Source: Pseudomonadales bacterium
GTDB taxonomy: Bacteria > Pseudomonadota > Gammaproteobacteria > Pseudomonadales > GM7GCV1
Assembly: GCA_965221105.1 (NCBI GenBank)
Contig: OZ244871.1
Span: 831,673-895,672 of the forward strand
Length of the DNA: 64,000 bases
Direction: 5' to 3'
Numbering within the stretch: the first letter of the stretch is position 1; each line of letters starts with the position of its first letter. The notes under the pieces are model-generated. The model was not told the DNA's origin. It did not search any database and saw nothing but the letters and a program-made list of their open reading frames with translations. This document shows, piece after piece, positions 2,037 through 43,069 of the stretch. Position numbers and translations under genes: made by a program.

Positions 2037-3056
2037 TCACTGCCCAATTGCCTCAACGAGCTGCACGGCTCGAATGCGAGACTCCACTAACCTGATTGCC
2101 CTTGCTTTCTGCTCATGTGGCATATAGCCGCGTTTAATCAGGTCAATGATCTTCTTCTGATCGCTCTCGAGTCTGGCGATGAACGTTCGAACTGGTTTTT
2201 CCCGTAATCCAAGCCGCCGCCCCAGTTCAAGGAAATCGGAGCCGGTATAGTAGCCATAATGGTTGTAGATATCGGAAAAGTACTCACTGTCGTGCTGCCG
2301 GTCATGTAACAGCCCCAGTGCCAACAGCCCCGGACCGGAATCGTTCTCTCCGAACGCATCGCACAAAAGGCAATCGTAATTCGGAGTGAGCCTGTCATAG
2401 AAGAGAGTGTTGTTGTCTGCACGTCTCTGTACGCTGAAATTCTTCAGGTGCAGATCGTCATTACCTGTAATATAGGCGAGAATCACTCGTCGAACGAAGT
2501 CCAGCACAACGGCCTGCTTGCCGTTCGTGACTTCATTAACACGCTGACCGGCTTCCTCGTAGGTCTTCCCGTACTTATTATCACCCGGCAGGTTGAAGCA
2601 TTGCATCAGATCCTCCTGATGCAGTTTACTGCCGTCATCCTGCCGGTCGAATCGTTTGGTAATGTATGCCAGCTCTCCGCCTTCAAAGCTCACCAACCCA
2701 CATTGGGCGGTTTCAATTCCCAACAGTCGGCTGACCTCCATGGCGGTATGTTCATTTTCAGCCGCATGCGGATAGGCTTCCGGGCTGGGTTTGAGTATGT
2801 ACTCTCCCCCCTTTGCAGTGGCCACCAATTCATGTTTTTCATTTTCTCTCAGGGAAAGCTTCTCCTGCGCTCCCGAAATTGACATGCCCTGTATATGCTG
2901 CCGGCTACTTTGGAAAAACCCGGCGCGTGAGAACGGCAAGCACGGGTTCACCCTGGTGCTGCCAAAGAGTGCCTTGAGCGCAGTATCCTGGTACCCGGGC
3001 CTGCTGCGTTTTCCGGTCAGTTTTTTTAAACTGATTTTGCAGTATTCAGTACTCAC
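2037..3056 (-). CDS. hipT: HipT-like Ser/Thr kinase toxin (HipA C-terminal kinase core without N-subdomain)
   Basis: 339 aa with a GTG start. Gly-rich loop MSISGAQEKLSL carries an S59-I-S61 motif, and GNDDLHLKNFS is the catalytic-loop motif of HipA-family kinases. It is the third gene of a hipB-hipS-hipT arrangement. Confidence 0.8.
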   Translation of the reverse strand: MSTEYCKISLKKLTGKRSRPGYQDTALKALFGSTRVNPCLPFSRAGFFQSSRQHIQGMSISGAQEKLSLRENEKHELVATAKGGEYILKPSPEAYPHAAENEHTAMEVSRLLGIETAQCGLVSFEGGELAYITKRFDRQDDGSKLHQEDLMQCFNLPGDNKYGKTYEEAGQRVNEVTNGKQAVVLDFVRRVILAYITGNDDLHLKNFSVQRRADNNTLFYDRLTPNYDCLLCDAFGENDSGPGLLALGLLHDRQHDSEYFSDIYNHYGYYTGSDFLELGRRLGLREKPVRTFIARLESDQKKIIDLIKRGYMPHEQKARAIRLVESRIRAVQLVEAIGQ

Positions 3057-4733: not shown

Positions 4734-4853
4734 AAGCCTGACGATGACCTACTCTCGCATAGCGAAGCGCTACACTACCATCGGCGATACGCCGTTTCAC
4801 TTCTGAGTTCGGAATGGGATCAGGTGGTTCCAACGCTCTATGTTCGTCAGACA
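4734..4853 (-). rRNA. rrf: 5S ribosomal RNA
   Basis: Minus strand reads TGTCTGACGAACATAGAGCGTTGGAACCACCTGATCCCATTCCGAACTCAGAAGTGAAACG..GAGAGTAGGTCATCGTCAGGC, the canonical bacterial 5S. Ends are approximate (+/-3). Confidence 0.9.
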
Positions 4854-4995
4854 AACCGGTCGGCAGCCTGTCTGCAACAGACTCCCGGAAGTCTTAAAAA
4901 CGTGAATAACTGTACGTATCACATCAGTGTCTCACACACCCACATCAATCGCTTGTGTTTTCCAGCACATGGAACAGCACAATCGCACATTATAT

Positions 4996-7864
<2,869 letters not shown>

Positions 7865-9184: not shown

Positions 9185-9344
9185 GCACAAGGAATGATCC
9201 ACCGTACGGATCCACGCCACCGATCGTGGACAGTCCTGCTGTCAATTCGGGGCCATTCTAGGGAATGGATTGGGGAGACCGGCCCCGTTGATAACAACAT
9301 CCGGAACAGCGAGCGTGATCGCGGACACACTGTCGAAATCACGG

Positions 9345-9461
9345 GAAACAGGCGAGAACCCATTCATGGGCAGAGTCCGAGCCAGTGCATCCCGCTCTTT
9401 GAGCACTTGCACAGACTGGGGCCACCGGGGTTCGTCTCCGGCCGTCAAGCGGAGTCTACGG
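9345..9461 (+). repeat. 117-nt conserved, hairpin-rich IS leader segment (copy 1)
   Basis: About 90% identical to 13385..13504. Contains hairpins CCCA-TTCA-TGGG, GCTC-TTT-GAGC nested in CCAGTGCA/TGCA..CTGG, and CCGGGG-TTCGT-CTCCGG. Confidence 0.8.
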
Positions 9462-9500
9462 CGTTATACGCGCCTGTCATGCTCCCTCGAACAGCTTGGC

Positions 9501-11667
9501 CTGGTGACACTCGAACCGGTGGGCGACCGGGCTGACCGCCATCGCTGGGAGGCGATGATTGACACCCATCATGAATTGGGATGGAATCGGTCACCCGGCG
9601 GCCAGATGCGCTACTGGGTCCGCTCGGCGCGCCAGGGGGTGCTCGGTGGCATCGGCTTTGGGTCAGCGACCTTTCAACTGAAGGCGCGGGATGACTGGAT
9701 TGGCTGGTCGAACGATGCCCGCGCTGAGAACATCACCCGGGTGCTGTGCACCCATCGCTTCCTGGTGCTCCCTGGGGTGCGTGTCCCGGGTCTGGCCTCG
9801 CAGGTTCTGAGGCTGGCCACGGCGCGGGTGGCCGATGACTGGGACGCGCGGTATGCAGTGCGACCGGTGGCTGTGTATACGCATGTCGCCGCACATCACA
9901 GCGGATACTGTTATCAGTGTGCGGGCTGGACGGTGGCGGGACGTACCAGCGGACGCAGAGCAGGGTCCGGGACACCGGGAACCGTGCGGGTGCTGCCGCT
10001 GGAGGCAGACTGGCAGGAGATCCTGTGTCAGCGGCGCCATCGCCCGATCGGGTCGCAGGTCGGTCTCTACGATGGTGCTGAGGTGGACTGGGCGCAGCGG
10101 CAGTATGGCCGCTGCCGCCACCCTGACGGGCGAGTGCGGCGGCGGATCGTCGAGATGGGCCGGCACTGGATGCGGACTCTGGGGGAGGATCTGACGATGA
10201 TCTTCCCGACCAGGGCGGCACAGAAGGCGGCGTACCGCCTGGTCTCGAATCGAGGGGTGACCATGGAGCATATTCTGGACGCACACTATGAAGCGACGGC
10301 TGATCGCTGCCGCCACCCTGACGGCCGAGGTGGCGCTCATGCTTCAGGACACGACAGTGTTGAACGACAGTACCCTGAAGGCCACCGAGGGACTGGTTCC
10401 GAGTGGGGGTGGCGGCACGGGCAGCCGGGGTCTTCTGGCCCATGCCGGTCTGGCGGTGACACCGCAGGGTCTGCCGCTGGGGCTGTTCAGCATGGAGACC
10501 CGGTTCCGTGATGAGCCGGACAGCGCGGGGACGACCGGGACGAGACAGGCACACACGACAGAGCGTCACCGCTGGATCGCCGGCCTTAGACGGGCACGGG
10601 AAGTGGCCGCCGTCTGCCCGGACACCCGGGTGGTGACGGTCTGTGACCGCGAAGGTGACTTCTGGGCGCTGCTGGCGGAGGCGGACCGTCAGGGCGATGC
10701 GCTGCTGGTGCGCGCCAGCCGTTCGGCCCGGCGGCAGGTACTGACCGCCACTGGAGACAGGGCCTGTCTCTGGGCGCAGGTGGCTGCCACCCCGGCGGTG
10801 GCGATCACGGAACTGACCATCCCCGCCGCTGGCGGCACGCGCGCCCGCAGGGACCGCACTGCCCGCCTGGAGATCCGTGCAACGCCGGTGCAGCTGGCAC
10901 CGCCGGACGAGTCCGCAGGCAGTGATCCGCTGCCCCTGTATGCCGTCTCGGCCACCGAGACGGACGCCCCGGAGGGCACTGACCCGCTGCACTGGCTGCT
11001 GGTGACGACCGAGCATCCGACCCAGGATGAACCGGTCGCCATGCACGCCGCCACCCTGCTGGACTGGTACCAGTGCCGGTGGGCGATCGAGACCTGGTTC
11101 CACACCCTGAAAACCGGTCCCCGGATCGGGGATCGCCGGCTGAACCATGGCGATGACCTGCGCACCTGTCTGGCCTGTGATGCGGTAACCGCCGTGCAGG
11201 TCGCCAACCTGACCATGATGGCGCGGGAGCATCCAGAGACCCCCGCCACTGAGGTGCTCCCTGCTGAGGACATCGACCTGCTCCATACCCTGCTGAGATC
11301 ACAGGGTCATCCGATGGTCGAGGCGCGATCCGCCAGCACCACCATTCGGGCGGTGGTCATCGACATCGGGCGCCTGGTTGGTGCCCATCCCTCTGCGCGT
11401 CAGCCACTGCCAGGCACCAAGAAGGTCTGGCAGGGGCTGGAACGGCTCAACTGGGCGGTGCAGGTACGGGATGCTCTTGGCGAGAAACAGCAGAAAGAGC
11501 GCCTGCGGCCTGGTACATCCGAACACCCAGTGACCGGTCACCGGACAGATGACTGGACGACCTGCTCTGGGGTGCTGACGACACCCCGCCCAGCGGGGTG
11601 GCTCTGGATACCAGCCTCACCCCACAGGAACCAGTCCACTCCTGAATCGCGCCCTGAACCGGGCTGA
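9501..11667 (+). pseudogene. DUF4338 (DruA-like domain) fused to Tn5-like DDE transposase, split by a frameshift near 10300
   Basis: Frame 0 (ORF 9270..10511) contains W.AMIDTHHELGW..QMRYWV..RDDWIGWS..THRFLVLPGVRVPGLAS..YCYQCAGW (DUF4338-like), then DWAQRQYGRCRHPDGRVRRRIVEM..AAYRLVSN..ILDAHYEAT (Tn5 N-terminal DNA-binding region). Frame +1 (ORF 10288..11667) continues ..VALMLQDTTVLN..VCDREGDFW..DWYQCRWAIETWFHTLKTG (DDE core). The start codon is uncertain. Confidence 0.7.
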
Positions 11668-14236: not shown

Positions 14237-14260
14237 GATTTGAAAACTGAGCCACTACCG
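14237..14260 (-). repeat. dispersed 24-nt repeat, copy on minus strand (CGGTAGTGGCTCAGTTTTCAAATCC)
   Basis: Matches copies at 20253, 20286 and 31474 (consensus GGYAGTGNCTCAGTTYNNAAAWYC). Confidence 0.7.
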
Positions 14261-19310: not shown

Positions 19311-19970
19311 TCAACGTCCAGCAGCCCTCGTCCCCAAGGCGAGTATGCTCAAATGCGGCATGATGTCCGCATTGTCCTGATGTCCGCACGCACGGCACCG
19401 GAAGGCGGCCTGCGATGGACGGTTTCCCGTGTGGGCGAACCCGCACACCGGGCACGCACGGCTCGTATGCTTCGGATTCACTTCGACAATATGCCCGGCT
19501 TTGTAGGCGAGCTTCCGCTTCAGGCCATGCCATCCCGTCTCAAGAATGGATTTGTTCAGCCCTGACTTCTGCTTGACGTGCTTGCCGGGTGCTTCTTCCG
19601 TGCCTTTCGCCGAAGCTATCATGCCCTTCGTGTTGAGCTTCAGGGCCACCACCGTTTCGGCTTTGTCGGCGATCTGCTGTGACGTGTGATGCTGCCGGTT
19701 GTCTCGGTAGCATCGGATATTGCGATACACCTTCGACCGGCGCTGCTTTGTGACGTTCCGCCGGTTCGACCCTTTCACCTGCCGCGCCATCCGTCGCTGA
19801 TAGCGACGCTTGCGGGCTTCAAGACGCTGTAGCCGCTGCCCATCCAAACGGTAGATTACGATGCGGCTGTATCTGACGATACGGGTGAATGCGATCGCCC
19901 GGACCGATGTCGTGATACGACGCGTGGATGCTGTCCTCAAACGAAGAACCGAAAAAGGGTACCGCCTCAC
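19311..19970 (-). pseudogene. tnpB: TnpB (IS200/IS605-family OrfB) remnant lacking the N-terminal half
   Basis: 219 aa with ..RKRRYQRRMARQVKGSNRR..ALKLNTKGM..KSGLNKSILETGWHGLKRKLAYKA..VNPKHTSRACPVCG..NRPSQAAFRCRACGHQDNADI. These are the RuvC-II/III and zinc-finger regions only. No tnpA is present. Confidence 0.75.
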
Positions 19971-19980: not shown

Positions 19981-20252
19981 GTGAGTGTCAGTCCATTTTC
20001 AGGGTCGATGCCGCCGCTGTCACATCCGTTGCGGCCTCCCCGATTACGTCAGTCGTCGTCCCGGATGTCGAACACTACATTTTGGCGCGGATTGTGGGCC
20101 AGGGTGACGATGAGTCGGTTTGCGGGATTGTCCCTGACCGCATTGTTATTCGTCGCCGCCACAAGGTAAGCTTGGGCTGCGGAGCCTGCGGCCACGGTAG
20201 CGCCACACAAAGTGAGTGGACACTGTGGCCATGTCAACCTCTCCTGAAATCT

Positions 20253-20277
20253 GGTAGTGCCTCAGTTTGAAAAATTC
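20253..20277 (+). repeat. dispersed 24-nt repeat copy (GGTAGTGCCTCAGTTTGAAAAATTC)
   Basis: Read directly. Tandem with the 20286 copy. Confidence 0.7.
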
Positions 20278-20285
20278 GTGATTTT

Positions 20286-20380: not shown

Positions 20381-21201
20381 TCAGCGCCGCACATCGACCG
20401 TGACATCACACCATTTGGCATAGGCTGGCGCACCGGCCGCCTCCAGCTCTGGCGTGGGCCAGCTGGGCGGGCCGCAATGACGGTCGGTCCGAAAGGTGGC
20501 CCCATAGCCTGCAGCATTGGCAACGAAAGCAAAGCCCGGGGGCGGCGTGGGGTTGTTCAGGTTCCAACAGCGCTGCACATTGGACGCAGCTGCATGACAC
20601 ACCTTGCCCCAGATCCGCACTTTGAAAATGCCGTTGCTCGGGGTCCGGGTCGGGGTGAACGAGTCACCTTGCTGAGTCGGTGTGTTCCCCGTGTATTGGC
20701 CAGTCAGGGGGGTTACATCGTCACTCGCTTCACTGCACCGCGGGTACCCTTTATTGGCGGTGAACGTCCGGCCCATGAAGGTCACGCTGCGCGAGCATTT
20801 GCGGGTCGTATAGGTCTGGCAGGCGATGGCGATGGGCCCGCCGCGGGAATAGGTGCCGGTCGGGTTGTGGAATTCGACCCCTCCGCTGACTCCCGCACTC
20901 TGGGCGCAATGGGAACCGGGTCCCACGCCGAAGGTCGTCCTGTCGTGAGTCATCTCGACCTCGTCTGGATGGTCCGGTGCAGCCTCGATCGTCAGGTTGG
21001 TGACCGCGCCGGACAAGTTCCGGTTGTTCACCGAGGGGGCAGGAAAGACCAGGTTCTGGTTCAGCCCGGTCACATAAGTAGCAGCGGGCTGCGACACCCG
21101 TGAAAATCTGGCCGCCCGTTCTACCTGTGCCGATGCCGGCAGGGCAAGGACTGTCAGCAGGACGGCGGCGCACGCCTTAGGAAAGAGTCGGGGGGGGGCA
21201 T
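20381..21201 (-). CDS. Cys-rich secreted protein A with poly-C tract after the ATG; out of frame at the current tract length
   Basis: ATG at 21201 is followed by C9. One extra C gives MPPPRLFPKACAAVLLTVLALPASAQ.. in frame with ORF 20381..21097 (8 Cys). With C9 there is a stop after 15 codons. Confidence 0.6.
21190..21198. repeat. homopolymer G9 (+ strand) / C9 (coding strand)
   Basis: Counted directly in the sequence. Confidence 0.95.
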
Positions 21202-21300
21202 GTCATGCATTGTTGGTCCACGGGGCAGATACCTTCTTGAGTGCAGTAAAAAAGCTTGAGTGATACGTCAACCAGTTGTACCGCCACAAAAATGATGGGA

Positions 21301-21457: not shown

Positions 21458-22981
<1,524 letters not shown>

Positions 22982-28209: not shown

Positions 28210-29766
28210 TTAATGTCTCGGGATTGACGGCCCTGCTTTACCGTCCAGTGCCGCTTGAACAAGTGCGCCCAAGAATTTTGTAAAAGGCTCTATGTTTTGG
28301 TTTGTGCTCGCTTCTTCCAAAGCAGCCATGTAATCATTGCGCTTTTCCAGCGGCACAATCGTCCAAGGGTAGCCGCCACTGGCAAGCATGGCATTCATTA
28401 AAAAACGCCCTGTACGGCCATTGCCATCCATATAGGGATGAATATAAACAAAGATAAAATGCCCCAGCACAACACGCACAGCGGCATTTTCTTCGGCTTG
28501 CAGCAACTCAAAAAACGCTGGTATAGCATCGCGCACAGCCTCTCGGCTTGGTGGCGTGTGCATGGAACGCCGGATAAAAACGGGCGCATTCCGATAACCA
28601 GCAAGATCAGCAGGCTTGTGAATGCCAGCCGTCACTCCGGGCGCAAACATTTCGCGATACCATACGCGATGATCGTTATCGACGACTTCCCCTGCATTAT
28701 GCCCATCGAGTATCTGCTCTATGCTCTTGCGCACGGCTTGATAAGCCTGCCAATAGCCTCGGGCGGCCAAGGCATTCAGCCGCTCTTTATCATCGGCATT
28801 TTGTTCTGGGTTCCAGTCTCCAGTGCGAACGCGGTTGATCAGTTCTGGCGTGACACGATATCCCTCAATAGAAAGCGAGTGATAGGCATCTGTCACATAC
28901 ACATCTTCAACATGCTGCATGTATGCGGTTTTATCGACTGTTTGCGAGGGCGATGCGGGAAAGTGTGCTATCACTGTTTCCCGCATATCTTGCCACATAA
29001 GCCGAATACGATTGACGTATGGGGATTGCTCGCGCCCTGAGAAGCTTAGGCTGGATTGTTGTTCAAACGGGTCTGTTTCGCGCAAGTCATACCCAGCCGC
29101 GCGCATTGTACCCATAATATCGTCAGCAATTTGAGCGCGGCTAATATTCCTGAATGCCCCTGCTAAACGGCCAGCAATAGAACTATGCCCACCCTCTAGC
29201 AATTGCTCCAAGACTTCAGATGCATCACTGACCATGGATAACGCCGCGCGCATATCGGTTGGGTTTTGAGTGAAGCTTTGCTTGCTACAGGCAATCAACG
29301 CAGCAGGACGGTTGTATATACGCAGACCGTTTTTGGTCGTCACCTGAGCGGGTGACGGGAGCGTAGCGCGAATATCTAATAATGACGTGCCGTGAGGTAA
29401 TTCTGTTACATTGTTCCGTGCCTTGGTCGCTCGAACTAATAACTGTTTCGGTACAGTCATATTCTCGGTATGAAGCGCGATAGATTGCTCAGGTGATAAG
29501 CACCAGTCGTCGCCTTTTAAGTGATTAAGGTAGGCTGCACAAAATTGCCAGAAGGACGCATACCAAGCCGTGCTTTCCCCGCGCGTTTCATCGGGGCGTG
29601 CTGGTACATACCAGCCCTTGATAACTTCCTCAAGGAAGCCGTTTTGAACGAGACGTTCACGATGAGTGCGCGAGAGATCGGCAGAGCGTATGGCAACTGA
29701 GCCATGTGTCTGAAGGTCGTGAAGTGCTTCTAATGCATCAGCCAGTTTTGCGGAAGGGGTCGCCAT
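28210..29766 (-). CDS. Fic-family protein with N-terminal winged-helix (AbiEi-like) region
   Basis: 518 aa. Fic motif HPYMDGNGRTGR. The N-terminus ..SVAIRSADLSRTHRERLVQNGFLEEVIKGWYV resembles AbiEi-type wHTH. The segment is AT-richer than its surroundings. Confidence 0.85.
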   Translation of the reverse strand: MATPSAKLADALEALHDLQTHGSVAIRSADLSRTHRERLVQNGFLEEVIKGWYVPARPDETRGESTAWYASFWQFCAAYLNHLKGDDWCLSPEQSIALHTENMTVPKQLLVRATKARNNVTELPHGTSLLDIRATLPSPAQVTTKNGLRIYNRPAALIACSKQSFTQNPTDMRAALSMVSDASEVLEQLLEGGHSSIAGRLAGAFRNISRAQIADDIMGTMRAAGYDLRETDPFEQQSSLSFSGREQSPYVNRIRLMWQDMRETVIAHFPASPSQTVDKTAYMQHVEDVYVTDAYHSLSIEGYRVTPELINRVRTGDWNPEQNADDKERLNALAARGYWQAYQAVRKSIEQILDGHNAGEVVDNDHRVWYREMFAPGVTAGIHKPADLAGYRNAPVFIRRSMHTPPSREAVRDAIPAFFELLQAEENAAVRVVLGHFIFVYIHPYMDGNGRTGRFLMNAMLASGGYPWTIVPLEKRNDYMAALEEASTNQNIEPFTKFLGALVQAALDGKAGPSIPRH

Positions 29767-29771
29767 GGTGG

Positions 29772-29867
29772 TTCTTCTCGCTTATCGTGCGTATCTGTTA
29801 TTCGCTTATTCTGTTGTATCATTATTCGCTTATTGTGTCGAGCGATAATTCGCTTACTGTGCAAAAA
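29772..29867. repeat. four direct repeats at exact 24-bp spacing (core TTCGCTTAT/C) between the XRE and Fic genes
   Basis: Core TCGCTTAT occurs at 29778, 29802 and 29826, and TCGCTTAC at 29850. Confidence 0.9.
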
Positions 29868-29907
29868 TGGTGTAAGCAGTTGAGGTTCTAGAAGCTACAT
29901 TTGCCCA

Positions 29908-30225
29908 TTATTCGGTGTCCCCTGGCAAGCCTTGCCACGGGTCTTCATTCAGGGGCTTCTTGTTTTGAGTATCGACCGCCGTTGTGTTGTCGTCTAATAC
30001 CGCCAATACGGTGGCCAGCTTCTCTTGTGGAATGAACAGCAGTTCGCTCTTGAGCCCCTTTGCGATCAACTCAAGGGTATCCAGTCGTGGATTGCCCTTG
30101 GATTCCAGTCGCTGATATTGCTGGCGCGACATTCCAACGCGCATCATCATATCGTGCTGTTTGAACGCTAGCTCTAATCGGCGCTTTTTGATTTGTTTGA
30201 GTAGTGAATTCATATTGAAACTCAT
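29908..30225 (-). CDS. XRE-family HTH transcriptional regulator
   Basis: 105 aa. HTH FKQHDMMMRVGMSRQQYQRLESG-like segment. Confidence 0.8.
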   Translation of the reverse strand: MSFNMNSLLKQIKKRRLELAFKQHDMMMRVGMSRQQYQRLESKGNPRLDTLELIAKGLKSELLFIPQEKLATVLAVLDDNTTAVDTQNKKPLNEDPWQGLPGDTE

Positions 30226-30285
30226 GTGTTGTTATTTCTTGATTAAGAAATATTTTGGTTTCTTTTTTAGGTTTAAACAACACAT
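30224..30285. promoter_or_regulatory. 10-bp perfect inverted repeat (ATGTGTTGTT ... AACAACACAT) overlapping the XRE start codon
   Basis: Arms at 30224..30233 and 30276..30285, separated by 42 nt. Confidence 0.4.
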
Positions 30286-30550
30286 ATGTTGCTATTCGGT
30301 CGATAGCATGGCTGTCAATCGCCTGATTTTCTCTTCACAAAAGTTCTTTACAACATAAAGGCTCCTGCTTTACGGTAGGCCGATCCTTGGGTCTTGAATA
30401 TCGTTCCCAGCACCCAGCTGTGTTCATCTTTTCTTGGGTTCCAGGTTTTCAACAGATGCACAAAATGGTTTTTATAGCGTCTACTGCTTGAAGTGGCGCG
30501 ATTTACTCTGTCAAGACTATGATCAGATTCTGACCTCGTGGTCTGATTTT

Positions 30551-30584
30551 CGTCATCAGATATTCCGATACCTATCTGATGACG
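30551..30584 (+). terminator. orphan hairpin (12-bp perfect stem CGTCATCAGATA/TATCTGATGACG) followed by a T-rich tract
   Basis: Read directly. No convincing upstream gene on the + strand. Confidence 0.35.
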
Positions 30585-31199
30585 TGTCTATTTTTGTAGT
30601 TTTTGGGTGTGCAGTGCTCGGTTTCCATGTGTCGCCATACTATGGTGGACACTGTGAGAAATCAGCCATGCATTCACTACCCTTCAGGCACCCAGATTGG
30701 CATCCGGGTTCTCCTCCGCGTGTGTCGACGGCATCACCCAGTTCTCATCACTTCGACCTTTCAGCATCCACGACGAGGCTGACCGCACCCTATACCACGC
30801 CGACATGACCGTGCAGGTCACCGACGTCCTGACCAGATGTGACGTCAGCCCGACCACCATTCACCGGGCGACAGCCAAGCTGCGTATGCGGTATGAGCTG
30901 CCTGAAACGGGTGAAAACCGGCGTATGATCTCCCAAACAATTGAACAGAAAAAGGCCCGAGGTCGGGATGTCTGATGTGCGATCCTTTGAATCGAGGAGT
31001 CTGTTCAGAGCCAGTTGCGCTGTTCTGTAGTTGTTGATTCGTAAGGGTGTGCAGACGCCCTCCACACATACTGTACCCCAGGACAGGGCGGTTTTCGGGC
31101 CGTTTCGGCCCATGGTGCCGTCTCCGGTGCGATTCTCCATCAGGGCCAGGGGCGCAGAGAGCCCCATTGACAGGTCGGATATATGGCAGCAGCCCGTCT

Positions 31200-31444
31200 C
31201 TTCCAGATCGACACAGTGCTCGTGCACACCGGGGCGGGTCATATATGTGTCAGGAGATCGATCAGCGCCTACACTTGAAGTTTCAGCAGAATGTGTCGGG
31301 GTGCTTCAGGAAGCGAGTGCACGCCGCGGCCTACTGTCGGCTCTCCAGCTGCCTGCACAATGGCACACACGGGCTACACGTCCCCGGTAGCGACCCAGAT
31401 GACGGTTGCTGGCCGACCTGCCCCCAAAGGGGGCGAGTAGTTAC
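31200..31444 (+). mobile_element. IS66-family 3' remnant (decayed transposase C-terminus plus right end)
   Basis: ..KFQQNVSGCFRKRVHAAAYCRLSS.. parallels ..KVKQKVSGCFRTLRHAQAHCRISS.. of the 3853..4664 copy. It ends GGGGGCGAGTAGTTAC at 31444. The left limit is approximate. Confidence 0.6.
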
Positions 31445-31473
31445 AGATATTTAGTACATGCCTATGAAATTTT

Positions 31474-31497
31474 GGCAGTGTCTCAGTTCGAAAATCC
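31474..31497 (+). repeat. dispersed 24-nt repeat copy (GGCAGTGTCTCAGTTCGAAAATCC)
   Basis: Read directly. Confidence 0.7.
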
Positions 31498-31660
31498 CGG
31501 TAGTGGTTTTTCTGGAAGATCGTGCATGTCTGCATAAGAGAAGGGCGGCCCGCAGGCCGCCCCGTGCATATGCGGTCTCCGGCTCCCTTGTGGGTCGGCG
31601 GATGCGCACCCCGTTCCTATCATGGACAGGGTCGCGCGGTTCGTTGTGGCCGCAGGGCGG

Positions 31661-32243
31661 TCAGCGGCGGCCGCAGCCCTCGCCAGTCGAGATGAAGGAG
31701 TGGACGGAGGTGAGCTTCTCAGTAAACAGCTTGGGATTGGACCTGACCTCATCAATCTTGAAGGACATCATGCCGCTGCCGATGGCGTTGCCGCCATTGG
31801 GGTCTCGCCCGAAGCCCTTGATCACGGCCCCGGCTTTGGGCCGGATATCCAGGGTCAAGTCCCGGGTCGTAGAGCCGGTTCCAAAACTTATATTCGTTAG
31901 ATTTCCGACATCGGTCCACCCTCTTTCCTCGCGCCGCCATTCAAGCAGGCTTTTTTCATTTACAGGAATAGTGCTAAAAAAGAGGCCAAGAACTCTTGAA
32001 CCAAAGTCTTCGAAGGTGACTTCGGGGTCGGTGGACGACAGGCGCACATGATAGCGCAGGTAGTCGCCGCCGCAGCCTTCCACGTGGTAGCCGTTGATGT
32101 TGCCGGTGACGGACACCGTGCATGTCTGAGCCGTGCAGCGTCTTGACTGCGCCAGCACCGCCGATGGCAGGGCCAGCATCAGGGCCACCAGTGCGACGGC
32201 AAGGGCCGTCAGTCTAGCGGGGGGGGGTCAAAGTTATGGCCAT
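31661..32243 (-). CDS. secreted protein B with poly-C tract in the leader; out of frame at the current tract length
   Basis: ATG at 32243, then GCC ATA ACT TTG A, then C9. With C8 or C11 the leader is MAITLTPP(P)ARLTALAVALVALMLALPSAVLAQ, in frame with ORF 31661..32188 (4 Cys). With C9 there is a TAG after 9 codons. Confidence 0.55.
32219..32227. repeat. homopolymer G9 (+) / C9 (coding strand)
   Basis: Counted directly. Confidence 0.95.
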
Positions 32244-32350
32244 GGCTTAGGTTCTCCATGTAAACGGAAGCTCTAGCTTAACAAAATATGCGACTCGAAA
32301 GCAAGTTCAGACGTCCTGACCTCGTGACCTGATTTCAGGTACATTCGGGG

Positions 32351-32694
32351 TCAATTTCTTCCCCCGTGCCAGTCTGAAGTGCAACACTGGTATGTACCGC
32401 ATGCCTGCTTGATCGAGGACAGGTTGCGGGAGAGTTGTTCGGAAATGTCCTGTTCAGAAAGACCGAAATCTTCTAACGAGTAACGGTGTGCGCCTTGTGA
32501 GTGTTGGTGGTTTTTCTGTCCCATCTGACAATATTTTGTTTCGCTTCACCAGTGAGTTCGTGATAACAAAAGCTGTGCAGTTCTTCCGCCACAGTGTCTG
32601 CAGAATCAGTGAGTTGGGCATAGGGGATATCAAGTATTTTGATGTGCGGATGGTTTTCGCGGAAGTCAGGATGCAGATTGAGTCCGTGGATCAA
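32351..32694 (-). pseudogene. sulfotransferase-family gene remnant with frameshift
   Basis: One frame gives ..HPHIKILDIPYAQLTDSADTVAEELHSFC.. (ORF 32473..32694). A shifted frame continues HRYSLEDFGLSEQDISEQL.., which is the typical C-terminal tail of bacterial sulfotransferases. The N-terminal PAPS-binding part is absent. Confidence 0.45.
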
Positions 32695-32897
32695 CTGGAA
32701 AATCTGATTCTGATAACGGGTGTTTCGTCACATGCCTTATGGTAGCTGGCAACAATACTGCAGAATGAGAGAGTCGAAGCGTTCAAGGTCTTTCCGCGTT
32801 TTTTTATTCCCTGTGTGCTTTTCCGAGCTACGAGGTCGTCCGACAGTACCACCAGGAGCATGCACCAGGTACACCGGGTTCTCTCAGCAGTGTGGCG

Positions 32898-33266
32898 CTA
32901 TATGGAAAAGGAAGCCCCACAACCGCAGGTTGTCGAGGCATTTGGGTTGTTGACAACGAAGCGGGCACCCTCCAGACCCTCCTGGTAGTCCACCGAAGCG
33001 CCAATCAGATATTGAAAGCTCAAGGGGTCCACAAGCACACATATTCCATCTTTCTCAACCAGGGTGTCCTCCTCGTCAGGTGCCTCGTCGAAAGTAAAAC
33101 CATACTGAAACCCTGAGCAGCCACCGCCTGTCACAAAGACCCTGAGCTTCAGGCCGGGATTGCCCTCATCCTCAACCAGCGCCTGCACCTTGCGCACAGC
33201 GCTCGCGGTGATATCCAGCAGTACTGGGTTGGGTTCAAATATCTCCGGTTGGGACATCGCAATCAT
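32898..33266 (-). CDS. erpA: iron-sulfur cluster insertion protein ErpA
   Basis: [14 protein letters not shown] and C-terminal CGCGASFSI. Confidence 0.9.
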
Positions 33267-39555: not shown

Positions 39556-40158
39556 TCAGAAGCTGCCGCAAGTTCCAGTTCCAGTTCCCAAGCCCTGGTA
39601 CTTGTTGACCTTGATTTGGGGGGTATCAATCTCCACCCATAGTTGATCTGTTATGCCATAGCCTTTTGGCTGCATCGCCTTGAACGTGCCTGAACCTGCG
39701 GTCGACATAGTCGACGTCCAGTAGACGTTCCCAATATGATCTTCGCCAGCCTCAACAGTGACGCCGCGGAAGACGTTGGTAGGATTTCCATTGAAGTCCG
39801 TGTATCTCATGGCCGGGTATCCATTGACATCTTTGGCGATGAGCCACGCGCTAATATTTTCTGACCCAGGAGTAGGATTTCCTTCATCATCCAAAGTTGT
39901 TGTACCATACGAGATAGATGCAACACCATTCATTCCGTCTGCGTTCACAGTAGCTTTGATACAGACGCGCTGGCCCCAATCCTCTATCGCCTGCGATTCG
40001 TTCCTGGCAACCGCGGTGGTGTCAACATTCTTAAAAAAATCCTGCGCCGTTTGCGCCATTACTGCAGTTAGCGGAGACAGCATCAATGCCGCAAGCGCGA
40101 TGGCGGGTGCCGTCAGTCGTTTACGGGGGGGGGGGGGTAATTTGCTTATTGTGTTCAT
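39556..40158 (-). CDS. secreted protein C with poly-C(13) tract in the leader; in frame (ON)
   Basis: MNTISKLPPPPRKRLTAPAIALAALMLSPLTAVMAQ (Sec-type signal peptide, AXA site) followed by a 164-aa mature part with 2 Cys. The PPPP is encoded by the C13 run. Confidence 0.65.
   Translation of the reverse strand: MNTISKLPPPPRKRLTAPAIALAALMLSPLTAVMAQTAQDFFKNVDTTAVARNESQAIEDWGQRVCIKATVNADGMNGVASISYGTTTLDDEGNPTPGSENISAWLIAKDVNGYPAMRYTDFNGNPTNVFRGVTVEAGEDHIGNVYWTSTMSTAGSGTFKAMQPKGYGITDQLWVEIDTPQIKVNKYQGLGTGTGTCGSF
40125..40137. repeat. homopolymer G13 (+) / C13 (coding strand)
   Basis: Counted directly. Confidence 0.95.
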
Positions 40159-40473: not shown

Positions 40474-41470
40474 TCATCCAGAGTTCCAGTCCTCTACAGT
40501 GATTTTTCCAGCTGTGAGCGCCCTGAGTGTCCGTATGCCAGCCATGACCTCGACGGTGCCGAGCCAGAGGAGCTTGGTTCCGGGAACCGGCTGTCGTGTG
40601 CTTGGCTGAAAGCCGGCCAGCCTGCCCAGGTTCACCACATACTCACGGATGCTCAGATCAGGTGGTGCCCTGATCGGCATCTTCGGATACAGATCGTGCA
40701 GCAGCAGCTGACAGGTAGCGATCTCCTCAGGTTCGACGACCTCCCGAGCGGGCGTGTCGGGTTCGTGCTTCGCACGCCGCTGCAGATCGAACACGCGCCA
40801 GGCCGTCACCGCATCACAGGCCATGCACTTGAGCAGGGCCTCAGTATCATCGAACTGCCGCTTCTCGATCTCACAGCCGCTGTTCAGGACTCTGAAGTAC
40901 TCCTCAATGCCCCAGCGGGTCTCATACCAGCGGCAGATGCGCAGGGCCGTGTCGGCATCGACCTCCCCCTCGGTACACAGCAGCAGCCAGTTCACCGGCT
41001 CCCTGATCTGCTCGGGCGGGTCATCCTCAGTGATGGACACCGCGATCACCGGCAGACTGTCATGGCCGTGTCGTCCCCGCCGGTGCCTTCAGGTGAACGC
41101 GTGCAATCCGCAGCCCCACCTGATCGGCCAGCGCGTGCTGGCGCTCACACATCGCCCAGTCATCCCCCTCCCGGTCACAGACCGTCACCACCCGGGTCGG
41201 TGCCGGTACCGGAGCCTCGCCCTCAGCCATCAGCCTCCGGGTGTCAGCGCAGGCACTCGCCAGCTCCCCGGCCAGCTCCAGCCCCTCCACCCAGCGGACG
41301 GACTCTGTCAGCTGCGCATCATCTGCAGCACGGGCGCGGAAGTGACCGTCGATCTCCAGCACCCCAAGCACCCGGCTGCCAGTCTCTGAGAACGCCACAC
41401 TGGCATGGGCACAGATCCCCCGGGCCGTGCCACCGATGGAGGTCAGCCCCCTGGTCACCACGCTGTGCAA
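40474..41470 (-). pseudogene. IS4-family (Tn5-like) transposase, 5'-truncated and frame-broken
   Basis: ORF 40474..41049 has ..WYETRWGIEEYFRVLNSGCEIE..CMACDAVTAWRVFDL..PGTKLLW... ORF 41060..41470 has ..VVTVCDREGDDWAM.. in another frame. It is a paralog of the 9501..11667 gene. Confidence 0.75.
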
Positions 41471-42143: not shown

Positions 42144-42494
42144 TCAAGCAGCACGCATATGCATATCCATGTGGATATCCAAGTAGGGACAGCACACTCT
42201 TCCAGAGTCGGTCCTCTCTATCAGACCCAATTCCAACAATACCTGGATATCATCATGCACGCGACGCACATCCCGCTCTATTGTGCGGGCAACCTCCCTG
42301 ACGCCCATCTCACCAGCGCCCTGTAACGCATTGACGAGCGCCCATCTCCTGGCAGTTAACTTGCCAAAAAATAATTCAGGGGATGCGAAACTGAGTTTCT
42401 CACCAAGCTTTTCTCCCTTGAAGGCCTGTTTGGCATTCTGTGCAAGTTGGCCTTTCCAATCAGGCTCGATAGTGATGGTTAAACTGCGGCTCAT
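42144..42494 (-). CDS. HTH DNA-binding protein, TumA-like putative antitoxin
   Basis: 116 aa. ..RRWALVNALQGAGEMGVREVARTIERDVRRVHDDIQVLLELGLIE is a wHTH. It starts 4 nt after the upstream gene. Confidence 0.55.
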   Translation of the reverse strand: MSRSLTITIEPDWKGQLAQNAKQAFKGEKLGEKLSFASPELFFGKLTARRWALVNALQGAGEMGVREVARTIERDVRRVHDDIQVLLELGLIERTDSGRVCCPYLDIHMDMHMRAA

Positions 42495-42497
42495 GGG

Positions 42498-42782
42498 TTA
42501 CCTCCGATTTTTCACCTCGCGAATAAAGTCTCCTATCACCTGGTCGACGCTCACAAACTTGTATGAAAATTCGTTTCCATCTAAATGACAATGATCACCT
42601 TTGCCACGTTCGTTATCGTATCCGACTACCCTTACCCCTTTCACTATATAGACCAATCGGTATTTTAAACGATGTTCACCAGGTGGCACTGGCTTCGGTA
42701 CGCGCCAGATCACCATCTCCAAGGTCTCTTCATCAGAAAGGATGTCTTTTCGCCTGAGCAGTAATTCAGCTTGAAGCGTCAT
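42498..42782 (-). CDS. TumE-like (DUF6516) putative toxin
   Basis: ..LEMVIWRVPKPVPPGEHRLKYRLVYIVKGVRVVGYDNERGKGDHCHLDG.. matches my memory of the DUF6516/TumE pattern. Start set at MTLQAELLL. Confidence 0.55.
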   Translation of the reverse strand: MTLQAELLLRRKDILSDEETLEMVIWRVPKPVPPGEHRLKYRLVYIVKGVRVVGYDNERGKGDHCHLDGNEFSYKFVSVDQVIGDFIREVKNRR

Positions 42783-43069
42783 GTTGTCAATTATGACAAC
42801 ATATGTGGTTCTGTCAACACAATTGCGCTCTGCGCCAGACATTAAAAGCGCGAAATGCAGCTGATACCAAAAGCCGAAGGCTCCGCATCAATAGCTTTAT
42901 GATGACGCAGTCCTGGACAGTTTTGTCCGCAGTGTATCTTCAAACACTATTGACTTACCGTCTGTCTGATGATGGTAATACACACGAAAATCGCACTTTC
43001 CTGTGTTTTATCGTACGCCTTGGCTGTCACACGCTGACAGAGTTACACCATGTCCTCTATACACCGAGC

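What the first reader, a model, noticed from the sequence alone, without database searches (positions are those of the whole stretch)
31661..32243. Secreted-protein gene B: C9 tract in codons 6-9 of the leader, again out of frame (phase-OFF copy)
The minus strand reads ATG GCC ATA ACT TTG A, then C9, then GCTAGACTGACGG. As sequenced there is a TAG after 9 codons. With 8 or 11 C the frame is MAITLTPP(P)ARLTALAVALVALMLALPSAVLAQSRRCTAQTC.., in frame with ORF 31661..32188. By arithmetic, 55 nt separate the ATG from the ORF start, and 54 or 57 are needed. The mature part has 4 Cys. The gene lies between an IS66 remnant and a sulfotransferase pseudogene.
Basis: partly seen in the sequence, partly recalled or inferred. 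Interest (0 to 1): 0.7.

Follow-up and report, generated by a model that had tools for sequence, protein, structure and literature searches.

The report
Slippery poly-C switch in secreted-protein gene
A run of nine C's just after the start codon knocks a small secreted-protein gene out of frame, and relatives show this run is a conserved, length-unstable on/off switch carried, with its gene, on a small mobile DNA cassette in a group of uncultured marine bacteria.

Summary
On the minus strand, ATG 32243 is followed by C9 (32219-32227) and TAG after nine codons. C8 or C11 restores a 193/194-aa preprotein with a Sec-type leader and a 4-Cys beta-sandwich mature domain.

Comparative evidence supports a slipped-strand phase-variation switch. 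The window's only three G/C runs of 9+ all sit in this position in three unrelated exported-protein genes. Twenty family-B loci carry a tract there, C9 to C20: 7 in frame and 9 out after collapsing near-identical loci. A syntenic sister genome (99.15% identical over 17.6 kb) has C16 where the window has C9, while 57 ordinary homopolymers kept their length. All 20 copies keep intact ORFs and diversify fast (10 nonsynonymous, 0 synonymous against the sister).

New here: in relatives, promoter, leader, gene and terminator form a ~0.85-kb cassette with 22-bp inverted repeats and 8-bp target duplications (IS66-like ends). The window copy keeps only the 3' end. Similar Pro-run leaders head unrelated cargo proteins.

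Not shown: read-level heterogeneity, reversibility, expression, protein function and host. The mechanism class is textbook; the gene families, the lineage and the cassette are new.

The parts
31661..32243 (-). Gene B, full preprotein reading frame as it would be with C8 or C11 (193/194 aa). As sequenced (C9) it is split into a 9-codon stub and ORF 31661-32188.
   Evidence: The public annotation of what is probably this genome starts at the internal Met (P0020).
32219..32227 (-). Poly-C tract (C9; G9 on the + strand) in codons 6-9, in the signal-peptide n-region. Proposed slipped-strand switch.
   Evidence: The same position carries C9-C20 in relatives and C16 in the sister genome.
32241..32243 (-). 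Start codon ATG, homologous to the start of P0001 and L002. In frame at C8/C11.
32254..32257 (-). Shine-Dalgarno-like GGAG, 10 nt upstream of ATG 32243.
   Evidence: Read from the sequence. A GAGGG occupies the equivalent place in L018 and L002.
32257..32259 (-). Alternative upstream ATG in another frame with no clear SD. In frame at C7/C10/C13/C16. It is the start used in the sister-genome annotation (MENLSHGHNFDPPPPPARLTAL, P0019).
32214..32216 (-). TAG that ends the stub peptide in the C9 frame. The other OFF frame ends at TGA 32209-32211.
   Evidence: OFF-frame stops follow leader tracts at a median of 3.5 codons, against 18 in background.
32150..32218 (-). Rest of the signal peptide after the tract: ARLTALAVALVALMLALPSAVLA. 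Predicted signal-peptidase cut after VLA, before Q (32149).
   Evidence: Maximum Kyte-Doolittle (12-residue window) 3.04, one Arg ahead of the core, 31-residue presequence. This is a heuristic; SignalP was not available.
31664..32149 (-). Mature domain (162 aa, 4 Cys). Predicted all-beta sandwich, no known family.
   Evidence: Pfam and NCBIfam give no match. AF2 pLDDT 80.4, pTM 0.75. Best PDB match is an adhesin CLIPPER domain, TM 0.39. Only 17 proteins at E<=1e-3 among 1.84 billion representatives.
32275..32304 (-). Candidate sigma-70 promoter TTGCTT-18 nt-TAAGCT, corresponding to TTGCTT-17 nt-TAAGAT in L018 and L002.
   Evidence: Read from the sequences and alignment. The consensus scan found no promoter at its threshold.
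31542..31563 (-). Terminator-like GC-rich hairpin about 100 nt after the stop. It lies in a ~190-nt 3' region conserved across family-B loci.
31467..31503 (+). 3' terminal inverted repeat of the gene B cassette (core GCAGTGTCTCAGTTCGAAAAT, 31475-31495). The 5' repeat is missing in the window copy.
   Evidence: The ends resemble the IS66-family element ISDge4 and share its 8-bp duplication (PMC12898284).
32177..32188 (-). Internal GTG (32188) and ATG (32179). They are starts chosen by gene callers and are unlikely to be used.
   Evidence: The Met is not conserved in the family.
21190..21198 (-). Sister tract in gene A (C9, OFF; in frame at C7/C10). Gene A is an unrelated 276-aa exported protein (ATG 21210, stop 20381), with the same cassette 3' repeat at 20245-20278.
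40125..40137 (-). Sister tract in gene C (C13, ON). Gene C is an unrelated 200-aa exported protein (ATG 40158, stop 39556). The tract is C18 and OFF in the sister genome.

Best explanation
Gene B is a contingency (phase-variable) gene.

Shown:
- A C9 tract lies in codons 6-9, inside the n-region of a Sec-type signal peptide.
- Frame arithmetic gives a full preprotein at C8/C11 and a 9-codon stub at C9.
- The tract position is conserved across the family while its length is not.
- The ORF behind the tract stays intact in every copy.
- In relatives the unit is a cassette bounded by inverted repeats with 8-bp target duplications.

Inferred:
- The tract gains or loses C's by slipped-strand mispairing during replication. 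Each cell lineage therefore either makes the preprotein, which is exported, cleaved after VLA and disulfide-bonded into a small beta-sandwich, or makes only MAITLTPPR.
- Both wrong frames stop within 3 codons of the tract, so OFF cells never translate the hydrophobic core.
- In this assembly the majority allele is OFF relative to ATG 32243.
- The protein is probably an exposed or host- or phage-facing molecule under diversifying selection.
- The gene with its promoter, switch and terminator spread as a non-autonomous cassette with IS66-like ends. The window copy has lost its 5' end and is probably immobile.
For: Anatomy:
- Sequence and frame arithmetic.
- The three long G/C runs in 64 kb all have the same layout.

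Family-B tracts:
- Lengths are C9, 10, 11, 12, 13, 14, 15, 16, 18 and 20 at the same site. After collapsing near-identical loci, 7 are ON and 9 are OFF, and the OFF copies are split between +1 and -1 types.
- Distant members also have PPP(P) leaders.

Sister genome L019:
- 99.15% identity over 17.6 kb with 5 indels. The largest is tract B, C16 against C9.
- Tract C is C18 (OFF) there and C13 (ON) here.
- None of 57 runs of 5-7 nt changed length by slippage.

Second strain pair:
- L003 and L005 are 99.3% identical, and their only indel is a poly-C tract, C10 against C18.

Protein clusters at >=90% identity:
- Leaders differ in Pro number: MIRSTP3 against P4, MIRFTP4 against P7, MMKHYP4 against P6. 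Many entries are called without a leader.
- Families C and A behave the same way.

Gene maintenance and design:
- 20 of 20 copies keep an intact ORF whatever the tract state. There are 36 invariant columns. dN/dS has a median of 0.74 and exceeds 1 in close pairs.
- Gene B shows 10 nonsynonymous and 0 synonymous changes against the sister genome. Its neighbours have pN/pS 0.29 (Fisher p = 0.0013).
- OFF-frame stops follow the tract at a median of 3.5 codons, against 18 in background.

Precedent:
- Gardnerella nanH3 has a C8-14 tract next to its signal peptide and the same annotation artefact.
- 5' homopolymeric tracts are a general inactivation device.
Against: - No reads are available, so within-population length heterogeneity and reversibility are unshown.
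- Tract length is not always different between close strains. One paralog is C10 (OFF) in three 99.2-99.9%-identical contigs and in a genome about 86% identical at this locus. Only 3 of 6 near-identical comparisons differ.
- The differences seen are large (5-8 nt), not +/-1.
- Both the window (C9) and its sister (C16) are OFF relative to ATG 32243. Combined with 10N:0S, which has probability 0.05 under neutrality, this also fits a copy that is decaying.
- The ON:+1:-1 split is close to 1:1:1, which is what unselected lengths would give.
- The assemblies are probably long-read MAGs (inferred from contig names), where long homopolymers can be miscounted.
- The window copy lacks the cassette's 5' repeat, and an adjacent gene is degraded.
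Confidence: 0.75

Rival explanations
1. This copy is an ordinary pseudogene. A frameshift in a homopolymer killed gene B in this genome, and it is decaying along with its degraded neighbourhood.
For: - The copy is OFF here, and it is OFF relative to the homologous ATG in the sister genome too.
- 10 nonsynonymous and 0 synonymous changes are compatible with neutrality at p = 0.05.
- A sulfotransferase remnant lies upstream, and the cassette's 5' end is missing.
- dN/dS is 0.79 for OFF-OFF pairs and 0.55 for ON-ON pairs.
Against: - The 175-codon ORF behind the tract is intact here and in all 20 copies. That includes OFF copies separated by dS 0.23-0.28, where several stops would be expected under neutrality.
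- The tract is retained at one position across the family rather than being a one-off lesion.
- Promoter, SD and terminator are conserved.
- pN of gene B (0.024) exceeds the neighbours' pS (0.015), which points to more than relaxation.
Confidence: 0.1
2. The OFF call is an assembly or sequencing artefact. The true tract is C8 (or heterogeneous) and the gene is simply ON. The homopolymer length was miscounted in a long-read MAG.
For: - The contig names of relatives look like HiFi metagenome assemblies (the link to a specific assembler is my inference).
- Every OFF length is within 1 nt of an ON length.
- Homopolymers are the known weak point of such data; the Gardnerella paper says the same.
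Against: - In 17.6 kb shared by two independent assemblies, 57 runs of 5-7 nt agree in length and there is only one single-base indel.
- C9 against C16, C13 against C18 and C10 against C18 are far larger than miscounts.
- Three contigs from two samples agree on C10.
- Even if this rival were true, only the 'OFF' label would change. The tract would remain hypermutable.
Confidence: 0.1
3. Expression bypasses the frameshift. RNA-polymerase slippage or +1 ribosomal slippage of tRNA-Pro on CCC-C within the tract makes full-length protein from the C9 allele, so the tract sets a low or high level rather than ON or OFF. The polyproline length could also throttle translation through EF-P dependence.
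For: - C9 needs exactly a +1 shift to reach the C8 frame.
- CCC-C near the start codon is a known +1 slippery context, and runs of three or more Pro stall ribosomes without EF-P. Both points are established knowledge recalled from memory and were not tested here.
- An OFF state persists at C10 across diverged genomes that keep intact ORFs.
Against: - OFF copies are split about equally between those needing +1 and those needing -1, and ON copies exist at the same site. No fixed recoding direction is conserved.
- Stops lie 1-3 codons after the tract in both wrong frames.
- No stimulatory RNA element was found.
Confidence: 0.12
4. Translation normally starts at internal GTG 32188 or ATG 32179 independent of the tract. 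Alternatively, the tract acts as a promoter spacer (TTGACC-Cn-GC-TAGACT) for that internal start.
For: - Gene callers chose these starts (P0020).
- GGTGG lies 5 nt before ATG 32179.
- TTGACC and TAGACT flank the tract, and the spacer would be 16 nt at C16 (read).
Against: - The resulting presequence is 10-13 residues, uncharged and weakly hydrophobic, yet the mature domain has 4 conserved Cys.
- The internal Met and the GGTGG are absent in most family members.
- The promoter-like hexamers are by-products of the codons TTG-ACC and GCT-AGA-CTG, and they are absent at genes A and C and in other paralogs.
- The spacer is 9 nt in the window.
Confidence: 0.03

Closest known systems
Gardnerella piotii nanH3 sialidase (poly-C phase variation next to the signal peptide)
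   Same: - A C8-C14 tract at the 5' end of a gene for an exported protein.
- Only some lengths give full-length protein.
- Genome annotations lose the signal peptide when the tract is out of frame (bioRxiv 10.1101/2020.09.16.300947).
   Different: - There the tract follows the signal peptide, about 100 nt into the gene, and clone libraries showed the heterogeneity directly.
- Here the tract lies inside the n-region, 15 nt after the ATG, so OFF products are 9-residue stubs.
- The proteins are unrelated, the host lineage differs (Gram-negative MAGs), and there are no read-level data.
Neisseria pilC G-tract, Neisseria opa CTCTT repeats, and Helicobacter pylori CT repeats in outer-membrane-protein signal sequences (recalled from established literature, not tested here)
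   Same: - Slipped-strand repeats sit within the signal-peptide coding region and switch translation of surface or exported proteins.
- Multi-copy, fast-diversifying families.
   Different: - Different repeat types and unrelated proteins.
- Those are cultured human pathogens with measured switching rates.
- As far as I know, those genes are not self-contained cassettes bounded by inverted repeats.
Campylobacter jejuni and Neisseria 'phasomes' of poly-G/C contingency genes
   Same: Many genes per genome carry G/C tracts of 8 or more. Here there are 3 in 64 kb, and about 22 leader tracts in all the sequence held.
   Different: - All leader tracts here are poly-C on the coding strand, encoding Pro runs.
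- They sit at a stereotyped place, 2-12 codons after the ATG, in exported proteins with similar leaders.
- The genome-wide count was not measured.
Listeria monocytogenes inlA 5' poly-A tract, and 5'-biased homopolymeric tracts generally (Orsi et al. 2010, PMC2831843)
   Same: A 5' homopolymer whose frameshift leaves a stub of about 8 aa, proposed as a reversible inactivation device.
   Different: Poly-A/T of 7 or fewer against poly-C of 9-20. A single gene against several families.
Non-autonomous IS derivatives that carry passenger genes (mobile insertion cassettes, MITE-like elements), with IS66-family ISBst12-group ends
   Same: - 22-bp terminal inverted repeats, 8-bp target duplications, no transposase inside, multiple copies in different contexts.
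- ISDge4 has ends GTAACTGCTCAGCA and an 8-bp duplication.
   Different: - The match to IS66 ends is only GTA...CTCAG (8 of 12).
- No autonomous partner was found.
- The passenger is a complete expression unit with a phase-variable leader, which I have not seen described.
- The window copy has one end only.

Membership tests
Slipped-strand (homopolymeric-tract) phase-variable gene | Uninterrupted G/C tract of about 8 or more within the 5' coding region | tested here: met
   C9 at 32219-32227, codons 6-9.
Slipped-strand (homopolymeric-tract) phase-variable gene | A change in tract length toggles between a full-length ORF and an early stop | tested here: met
   C8 or C11 gives 193/194 aa. C9 and C10 give 9-11 aa.
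Slipped-strand (homopolymeric-tract) phase-variable gene | Tract length is polymorphic between closely related genomes whose flanks are conserved | tested here: met
   - C9 against C16 at 99.15% identity.
- C13 against C18 at gene C.
- C10 against C18 at 99.3% identity.
- Control homopolymers are unchanged.
- However, 3 of 6 close pairs have equal lengths.
Slipped-strand (homopolymeric-tract) phase-variable gene | Length heterogeneity within one population, and reversible switching at a high rate | not testable with these tools
   No reads or cultures. Two co-resident strain contigs from one sample both have C10.
Slipped-strand (homopolymeric-tract) phase-variable gene | The expression phenotype follows tract length | not testable with these tools
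   No transcriptome or proteome data.
Sec-type (SPase I) signal peptide | Positively charged n-region, hydrophobic h-region of 10-15 residues, small residues at -3/-1, no lipobox or twin-arginine motif | tested here: met
   - The leader is MAITLTPPA-R-LTALAVALVALMLALP-SAVLA|Q, with maximum Kyte-Doolittle 3.04.
- ALPSAV(L/M)AQ is conserved.
- There is no Cys at +1 and a single Arg.
- This is a heuristic only; SignalP was not available.
Non-autonomous IS66-like mobile cassette | Terminal inverted repeats at both ends | tested here: inconclusive
   Both arms are present in L002, L003/5, L004, L009, L018, L020-22 and L006 (other cargo). The window copy has only the 3' arm (31467-31503).
Non-autonomous IS66-like mobile cassette | 8-bp target-site duplication | tested here: met
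   - Seen in relatives: AGGCTTCA and AAGTCGTA are perfect, two insertions match 7/8 and one 6/8.
- It cannot be assessed for the window copy, because its 5' end is lost.
Non-autonomous IS66-like mobile cassette | Ends that match an IS66-family transposase partner | tested here: inconclusive
   - GTAGTGTCTCAG against GTAACTGCTCAG of ISDge4 is 8/12.
- No IS66 transposase is present in the window or in the flanks examined.
Programmed frameshift or recoding site | A fixed, conserved frame offset at the site in all homologs | tested here: not met
   In-frame, +1 and -1 configurations all occur at the same site, at about 7:5:5.
Pseudogene | Loss of ORF integrity and neutral evolution downstream of the lesion | tested here: not met
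   - 20 of 20 copies have intact ORFs, and 36 columns are invariant.
- dN/dS alone is not decisive for this single copy.
Promoter-spacer homopolymer switch (fim or porA type) | The tract lies between the -35 and -10 of the promoter driving the gene | tested here: not met
   - The tract is 15 nt downstream of the start codon.
- The chance TTGACC...TAGACT hexamers are not conserved in paralogs.

The most novel reading that the evidence does not exclude
Gene B is one cargo of a family of transposable 'plug-in' modules. IS66-like inverted repeats enclose a promoter, a hypermutable poly-C (poly-Pro) signal-peptide leader with built-in off-frame stops, a small Cys-bonded secreted beta-protein of variable family, and a terminator.

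Such cassettes would let a lineage of uncultured, probably host-associated marine Gammaproteobacteria acquire, copy and exchange ready-made phase-variable exported proteins, possibly with co-resident bacteria. The Pro-run length could additionally tune translation.

Evidence in hand:
- Inverted repeats plus 8-bp duplications around family-B genes and around one unrelated cargo.
- The same 3' end behind unrelated gene A.
- Near-identical leaders on unrelated mature domains.
Probability: 0.35. Interest if true: 0.75.

Novelty: new variant of a known kind. Interest (0 to 1): 0.55.

Why it matters
Homopolymer phase variation is a textbook strategy of cultured human pathogens. Here it appears as a stereotyped device, a poly-C tract in the n-region of the signal peptide. 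At least three unrelated, uncharacterised families of small secreted proteins share it in uncultured marine MAGs whose genomes show signs of host restriction.

- **Biology:** it marks out the proteins these bacteria vary stochastically. They are likely exposed to a host, to phages or to competitors, which makes them priority targets for symbiosis studies.
- **Annotation:** public gene calls for these families are wrong in a consistent way. Roughly half are called from internal Met codons and lack their signal peptide.
- **Mobile cassette:** if this reading holds, it shows that a complete phase-variable expression unit can itself transpose. That would be a new route for spreading contingency loci.

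Tried and rejected
- **Family searches.** Pfam and NCBIfam scans of proteins A, B and C gave nothing.
- **Structure searches.** Foldseek of the AF2 model gave only weak, generic Ig-like matches. The best PDB hit was a CLIPPER adhesin domain (TM 0.39) and the best viral hit had E 6e-3. No function could be assigned.
- **RNA families.** Rfam at E<=1 over 30200-32900 found nothing.
- **IS66 transposase remnant.** Six-frame Pfam of both flanks and blastn of 30230-31660 against plasmids found nothing.
- **Exact look-ups of the window's own genome.** argC, P0020 and P0072 were not on record, so the record name and organism stayed unknown.
- **Host or environment.** Three literature searches did not identify it.
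- **Promoter scan.** No consensus sigma-70 site was found. The promoter given in the parts list is read by eye from conserved hexamers.
- **Considered and rejected:**
  - Twin-arginine export: only some homologs have RR.
  - Lipoprotein: there is no lipobox.
  - Selenocysteine at the in-frame TGA that truncates the C-terminal tail: homologs have Ser/Leu there, not Cys, and conservation after the TGA is relaxed.
  - Tract as a promoter spacer.
  - Programmed frameshifting as the sole mechanism.
- **B and C homology.** Profile comparison showed that only the leaders align, so the mature domains are not related.
- **Co-resident strains.** The contigs from one sample did not show different tract lengths.
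Full report
**1. The observation**

On the minus strand the window reads ATG GCC ATA ACT TTG ACC CCC CCC CGC TAG. The ATG is at 32243, the C9 tract is at 32219-32227 and the TAG is at 32216-32214. ORF 31661-32188 starts 55 nt after the ATG.

Rebuilding the gene with every tract length from C5 to C13 shows that C5, C8 and C11 give a continuous preprotein, MAITLTPP(P)ARLTALAVALVALMLALPSAVLAQSRRC... All other lengths end after 8-12 codons.

The tract is not a chance feature. The window has only three G/C runs of 9 or more, and the next longest is 7. Dinucleotide-preserving shuffles never reach the observed count.

All three runs are poly-C on the coding strand, 2-7 codons after an ATG and just ahead of a hydrophobic leader:
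- gene A: C9 at 21190-21198, out of frame, in frame at C7/C10;
- gene B: the finding;
- gene C: C13 at 40125-40137, in frame.

**2. What the gene encodes**

The repaired leader has one Arg, a strongly hydrophobic core and a VLA|Q cut site. This is a heuristic reading, because SignalP was not available.

The mature part (162 aa, 4 Cys) matches no Pfam or NCBIfam model. AlphaFold2 on a 17-sequence alignment gives a confident all-beta sandwich (pLDDT 80.4, pTM 0.75). It has only weak, generic structural neighbours. The best is the CLIPPER domain of a fibrillar adhesin at TM 0.39, and nothing significant turns up among viral proteins.

The family is very small: 16 clusters by word-seeded search, and 17 proteins at E<=1e-3 among 1.84 billion representatives. 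All come from ENA/NCBI metagenome-assembled genomes, mostly complete chromosomes of 1.8-4.1 Mb, with up to four copies per genome. The function is unknown. I infer an exported, disulfide-bonded, exposed protein.

**3. Comparative test of the switch**

I fetched 17 genomic loci for the family and five more through exact protein look-ups.

- Twenty loci carry a poly-C tract at the same place in the leader. Lengths are C9, 10, 11, 12, 13, 14, 15, 16, 18 and 20.
- After collapsing near-identical loci, 7 are in frame and 9 are out of frame. The out-of-frame copies divide about equally into one-too-many and one-too-few.
- One copy has lost the tract and has a plain leader (L001, MKRLMTL...).
- Distant members found only by the profile search still have PPP(P) leaders.
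- Many database proteins of the family start at internal Met codons and lack the signal peptide. P0020 is identical to the window's protein from Met 32179 onward and sits on a 2,769,150-bp contig that also carries the window's gene C (P0072, 100% identity). The Gardnerella nanH3 study reports the same annotation artefact.

**4. Sister-genome test**

L019 comes from a circular 2.81-Mb contig. It is syntenic with the window across argC, DUF6776, bactofilin, erpA, gene B, HTH, Fic and AnmK, and it is 99.15% identical over 17.6 kb.

That block has five indels. Three are in-frame triplets, one is a single T, and the largest is tract B: C16 there against C9 here. None of 57 ordinary runs of 5-7 nt changed length by slippage. 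Gene C's tract is C18 (out of frame) there and C13 (in frame) here.

A second pair, L003 and L005, is 99.3% identical over 6.6 kb, and its only indel is another poly-C tract, C10 against C18.

Against this, one paralog is C10 (out of frame) in three contigs that are 99.2-99.9% identical, two of them co-resident strains in one sample. It is also C10 in a genome about 86% identical at this locus. Overall, 3 of 6 close comparisons differ. The tracts are the dominant indel hotspots, but they do not change at every step.

**5. Are the out-of-frame copies dead?**

- All 20 copies keep an intact ORF through to a conserved C-terminus, whatever their tract state. That includes OFF-OFF pairs separated by dS 0.23-0.28.
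- The family has 36 invariant columns.
- dN/dS is high: median 0.74, and above 1 in several close pairs.
- Between the window and L019, gene B has 10 nonsynonymous and 0 synonymous changes, while 14 neighbouring genes pool to pN/pS 0.29 (Fisher p = 0.0013). Under strict neutrality, 0 of 10 synonymous has p = 0.05.

This fits maintained, fast-diversifying genes better than pseudogenes. For this single copy, decay cannot be excluded.

**6. Design features**

In 22 tract-bearing leaders in the sequence I hold, the two wrong frames end at a median of 3.5 codons after the tract, against 18 for background off-frames. For gene B they end at TAG 32216 and TGA 32211. OFF cells would therefore make only a stub and never the hydrophobic core.

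All leader tracts are poly-C, never poly-G, on the coding strand, so they encode Pro runs in the tolerant n-region.

Families C and A show the same leader variation, the same truncated calls and occasional tract loss. Profile comparison of B and C aligns only the leaders (37 columns, probability 92%). A family-A protein and a distant family-B protein share MTRLT(RT)LPPPPLDR on unrelated mature domains.

**7. The cassette**

The ~190 nt after gene B's stop, including a terminator-like hairpin (31563-31542), are conserved across family-B loci.

In L002, L003/5, L004, L009, L018 and L020-22, the promoter, gene and terminator are bracketed by 21-32-nt inverted repeats 841-883 bp apart: GGTAGTGTCTCAGTTTGAAAAT ... 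ATTTTCAAACTGAYACACTACC.

Just outside the repeats are 8-bp direct repeats:
- AGGCTTCA and AAGTCGTA, both perfect;
- two insertions at 7/8;
- one insertion at 6/8.

These are the marks of transposition. The same repeats enclose an unrelated gene with a C9 leader tract (L006:1785-2733).

In the window the motif occurs three times, with none expected by chance:
- directly after gene B (31475-31495);
- directly after unrelated gene A (20254-20274);
- ahead of a degraded ORF (14238-14258).

No 5' repeat precedes window gene B. Its homology with complete cassettes begins at the -35 hexamer, so this copy is 5'-truncated.

A published IS66-family element, ISDge4, has ends GTAACTGCTCAGCA and an 8-bp duplication. 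No IS66 transposase is present in the window.

**8. Rivals**

- **Sequencing artefact.** This cannot explain differences of 5-8 nt or the clean homopolymer control. At most it changes the OFF label.
- **Frameshift or slippage bypass.** This is plausible as a leak, because C9 needs a +1 shift and CCC-C is slippery. No fixed offset is conserved, so it cannot be the whole mechanism.
- **Internal starts.** They give a poor presequence and are not conserved.
- **Promoter spacer.** This reading rests on hexamers that are by-products of codons.

**9. Verdict**

The mechanism class, a slipped-strand homopolymer switch in the signal-peptide region, is well known: Gardnerella nanH3, 5' homopolymeric tracts generally, and, from established literature, Neisseria pilC and opa and Helicobacter outer-membrane proteins.

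What is new:
- the gene families and the lineage;
- the stereotyped poly-Pro leader shared by unrelated cargo proteins;
- the packaging of the whole unit in a cassette with IS66-like ends.

What is still missing: read-level heterogeneity, reversibility, expression, protein function, and the identity of the organism and its host.

Noticed in passing
window 21190-21198 (gene A, 20381-21210, minus strand) and 40125-40137 (gene C, 39556-40158, minus strand): Two more leader poly-C tracts sit in unrelated exported-protein genes: A is C9 and OFF, C is C13 and ON. Both families show the same Pro-run variation and leaderless gene calls in databases. Gene C is C18 and OFF in the sister genome.
   Followed up: partly
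L002:3822-4665, L018:7912-8784, L020:2333-3206, L004:3896-4738, L003:3829-4711, L006:1785-2733; window 31467-31503, 20245-20278, 14238-14258: Cassettes of about 0.85-0.95 kb with 22-bp terminal inverted repeats (GGTAGTGTCTCAGTTTGAAAAT) and 8-bp target duplications. Each encloses a promoter, a poly-C leader, a small secreted-protein gene and a terminator. The cargo differs between cassettes. The window copies have only one end.
   Followed up: partly
window 32257-32259, and L019:10001-10606: A second ATG 16 nt upstream, in another frame, would be in frame at C7/C10/C16. The sister-genome protein P0019 is annotated from it. Similar dual-frame ATGs occur in L003 and L005. If both starts work, two of every three tract lengths would be ON.
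   Followed up: partly
window 31595-31663, and equivalents in L019, L018, L001: An in-frame TGA truncates the ancestral 21-aa C-terminal tail (SLPSGYNEPDGHLYEDGVRIR) in this subclade. The remnant (PPCGHNEPRDPVHDRNGVRIR) is still in frame after the stop but shows relaxed conservation. Selenocysteine was considered and judged unlikely.
   Followed up: partly
window 21458-22979 (16S), 4994-7864 (23S), 4736-4851 (5S): The rRNA genes are unlinked: 16S lies about 13.6 kb from 23S/5S, with gene A starting about 250 nt downstream of the 16S. Unlinked rRNA genes are often seen in host-restricted or slow-growing bacteria.
   Followed up: no
L003:6124-6133, L003:7755-7770, L005:6124-6141: A repeated sequence (…cgcaacttaCn gatccaacatcg…) carries C10, C16 and C18 in copies with otherwise identical flanks. 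The tract follows ATG plus 12 codons in a gene with no signal peptide, so the tracts are not confined to exported proteins.
   Followed up: no
window 19311-19970, 9270-10511, 40474-41049, 2037-3056, 42144-42842, 28210-30225: Dense mobile-element and toxin-antitoxin debris:
- a TnpB/Cas12f-like remnant;
- Tn5-like transposase fragments, one fused to a DruA-like domain;
- HipA;
- a TumE/HVO_A0114 pair;
- Fic with an HTH partner.
This is consistent with a genome under host restriction or heavy mobile-element traffic.
   Followed up: no
window 30230-31470: About 1.2 kb downstream of the cassette end has no credible ORF, no Pfam, Rfam or plasmid match, and is 99.8% identical to the sister genome. 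ORF 30790-31242 has zero differences. Its nature is unexplained.
   Followed up: partly
L004, L009, L013, L016 (OZ244059.1), L008 (OZ244066.1), L017: Genomes labelled Aestuariivita or Paracoccaceae (Alphaproteobacteria) carry family-B cassettes 94-97% identical to each other, and about 55% identical in protein to copies in genomes labelled Gammaproteobacteria. Either the cassettes move between co-resident bacteria or the MAG labels are unreliable.
   Followed up: no
L015:3781-3804 and L017:3904-3923: Two family-B copies have very long tracts (C24, C20) that are not in the leader of the called gene. In L015 the tract follows a mini-start (ATG plus 7 codons) about 110 nt upstream of the real ATG. 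In L017 no ATG precedes the tract. These may be tract-bearing upstream ORFs or decayed leaders.
   Followed up: no
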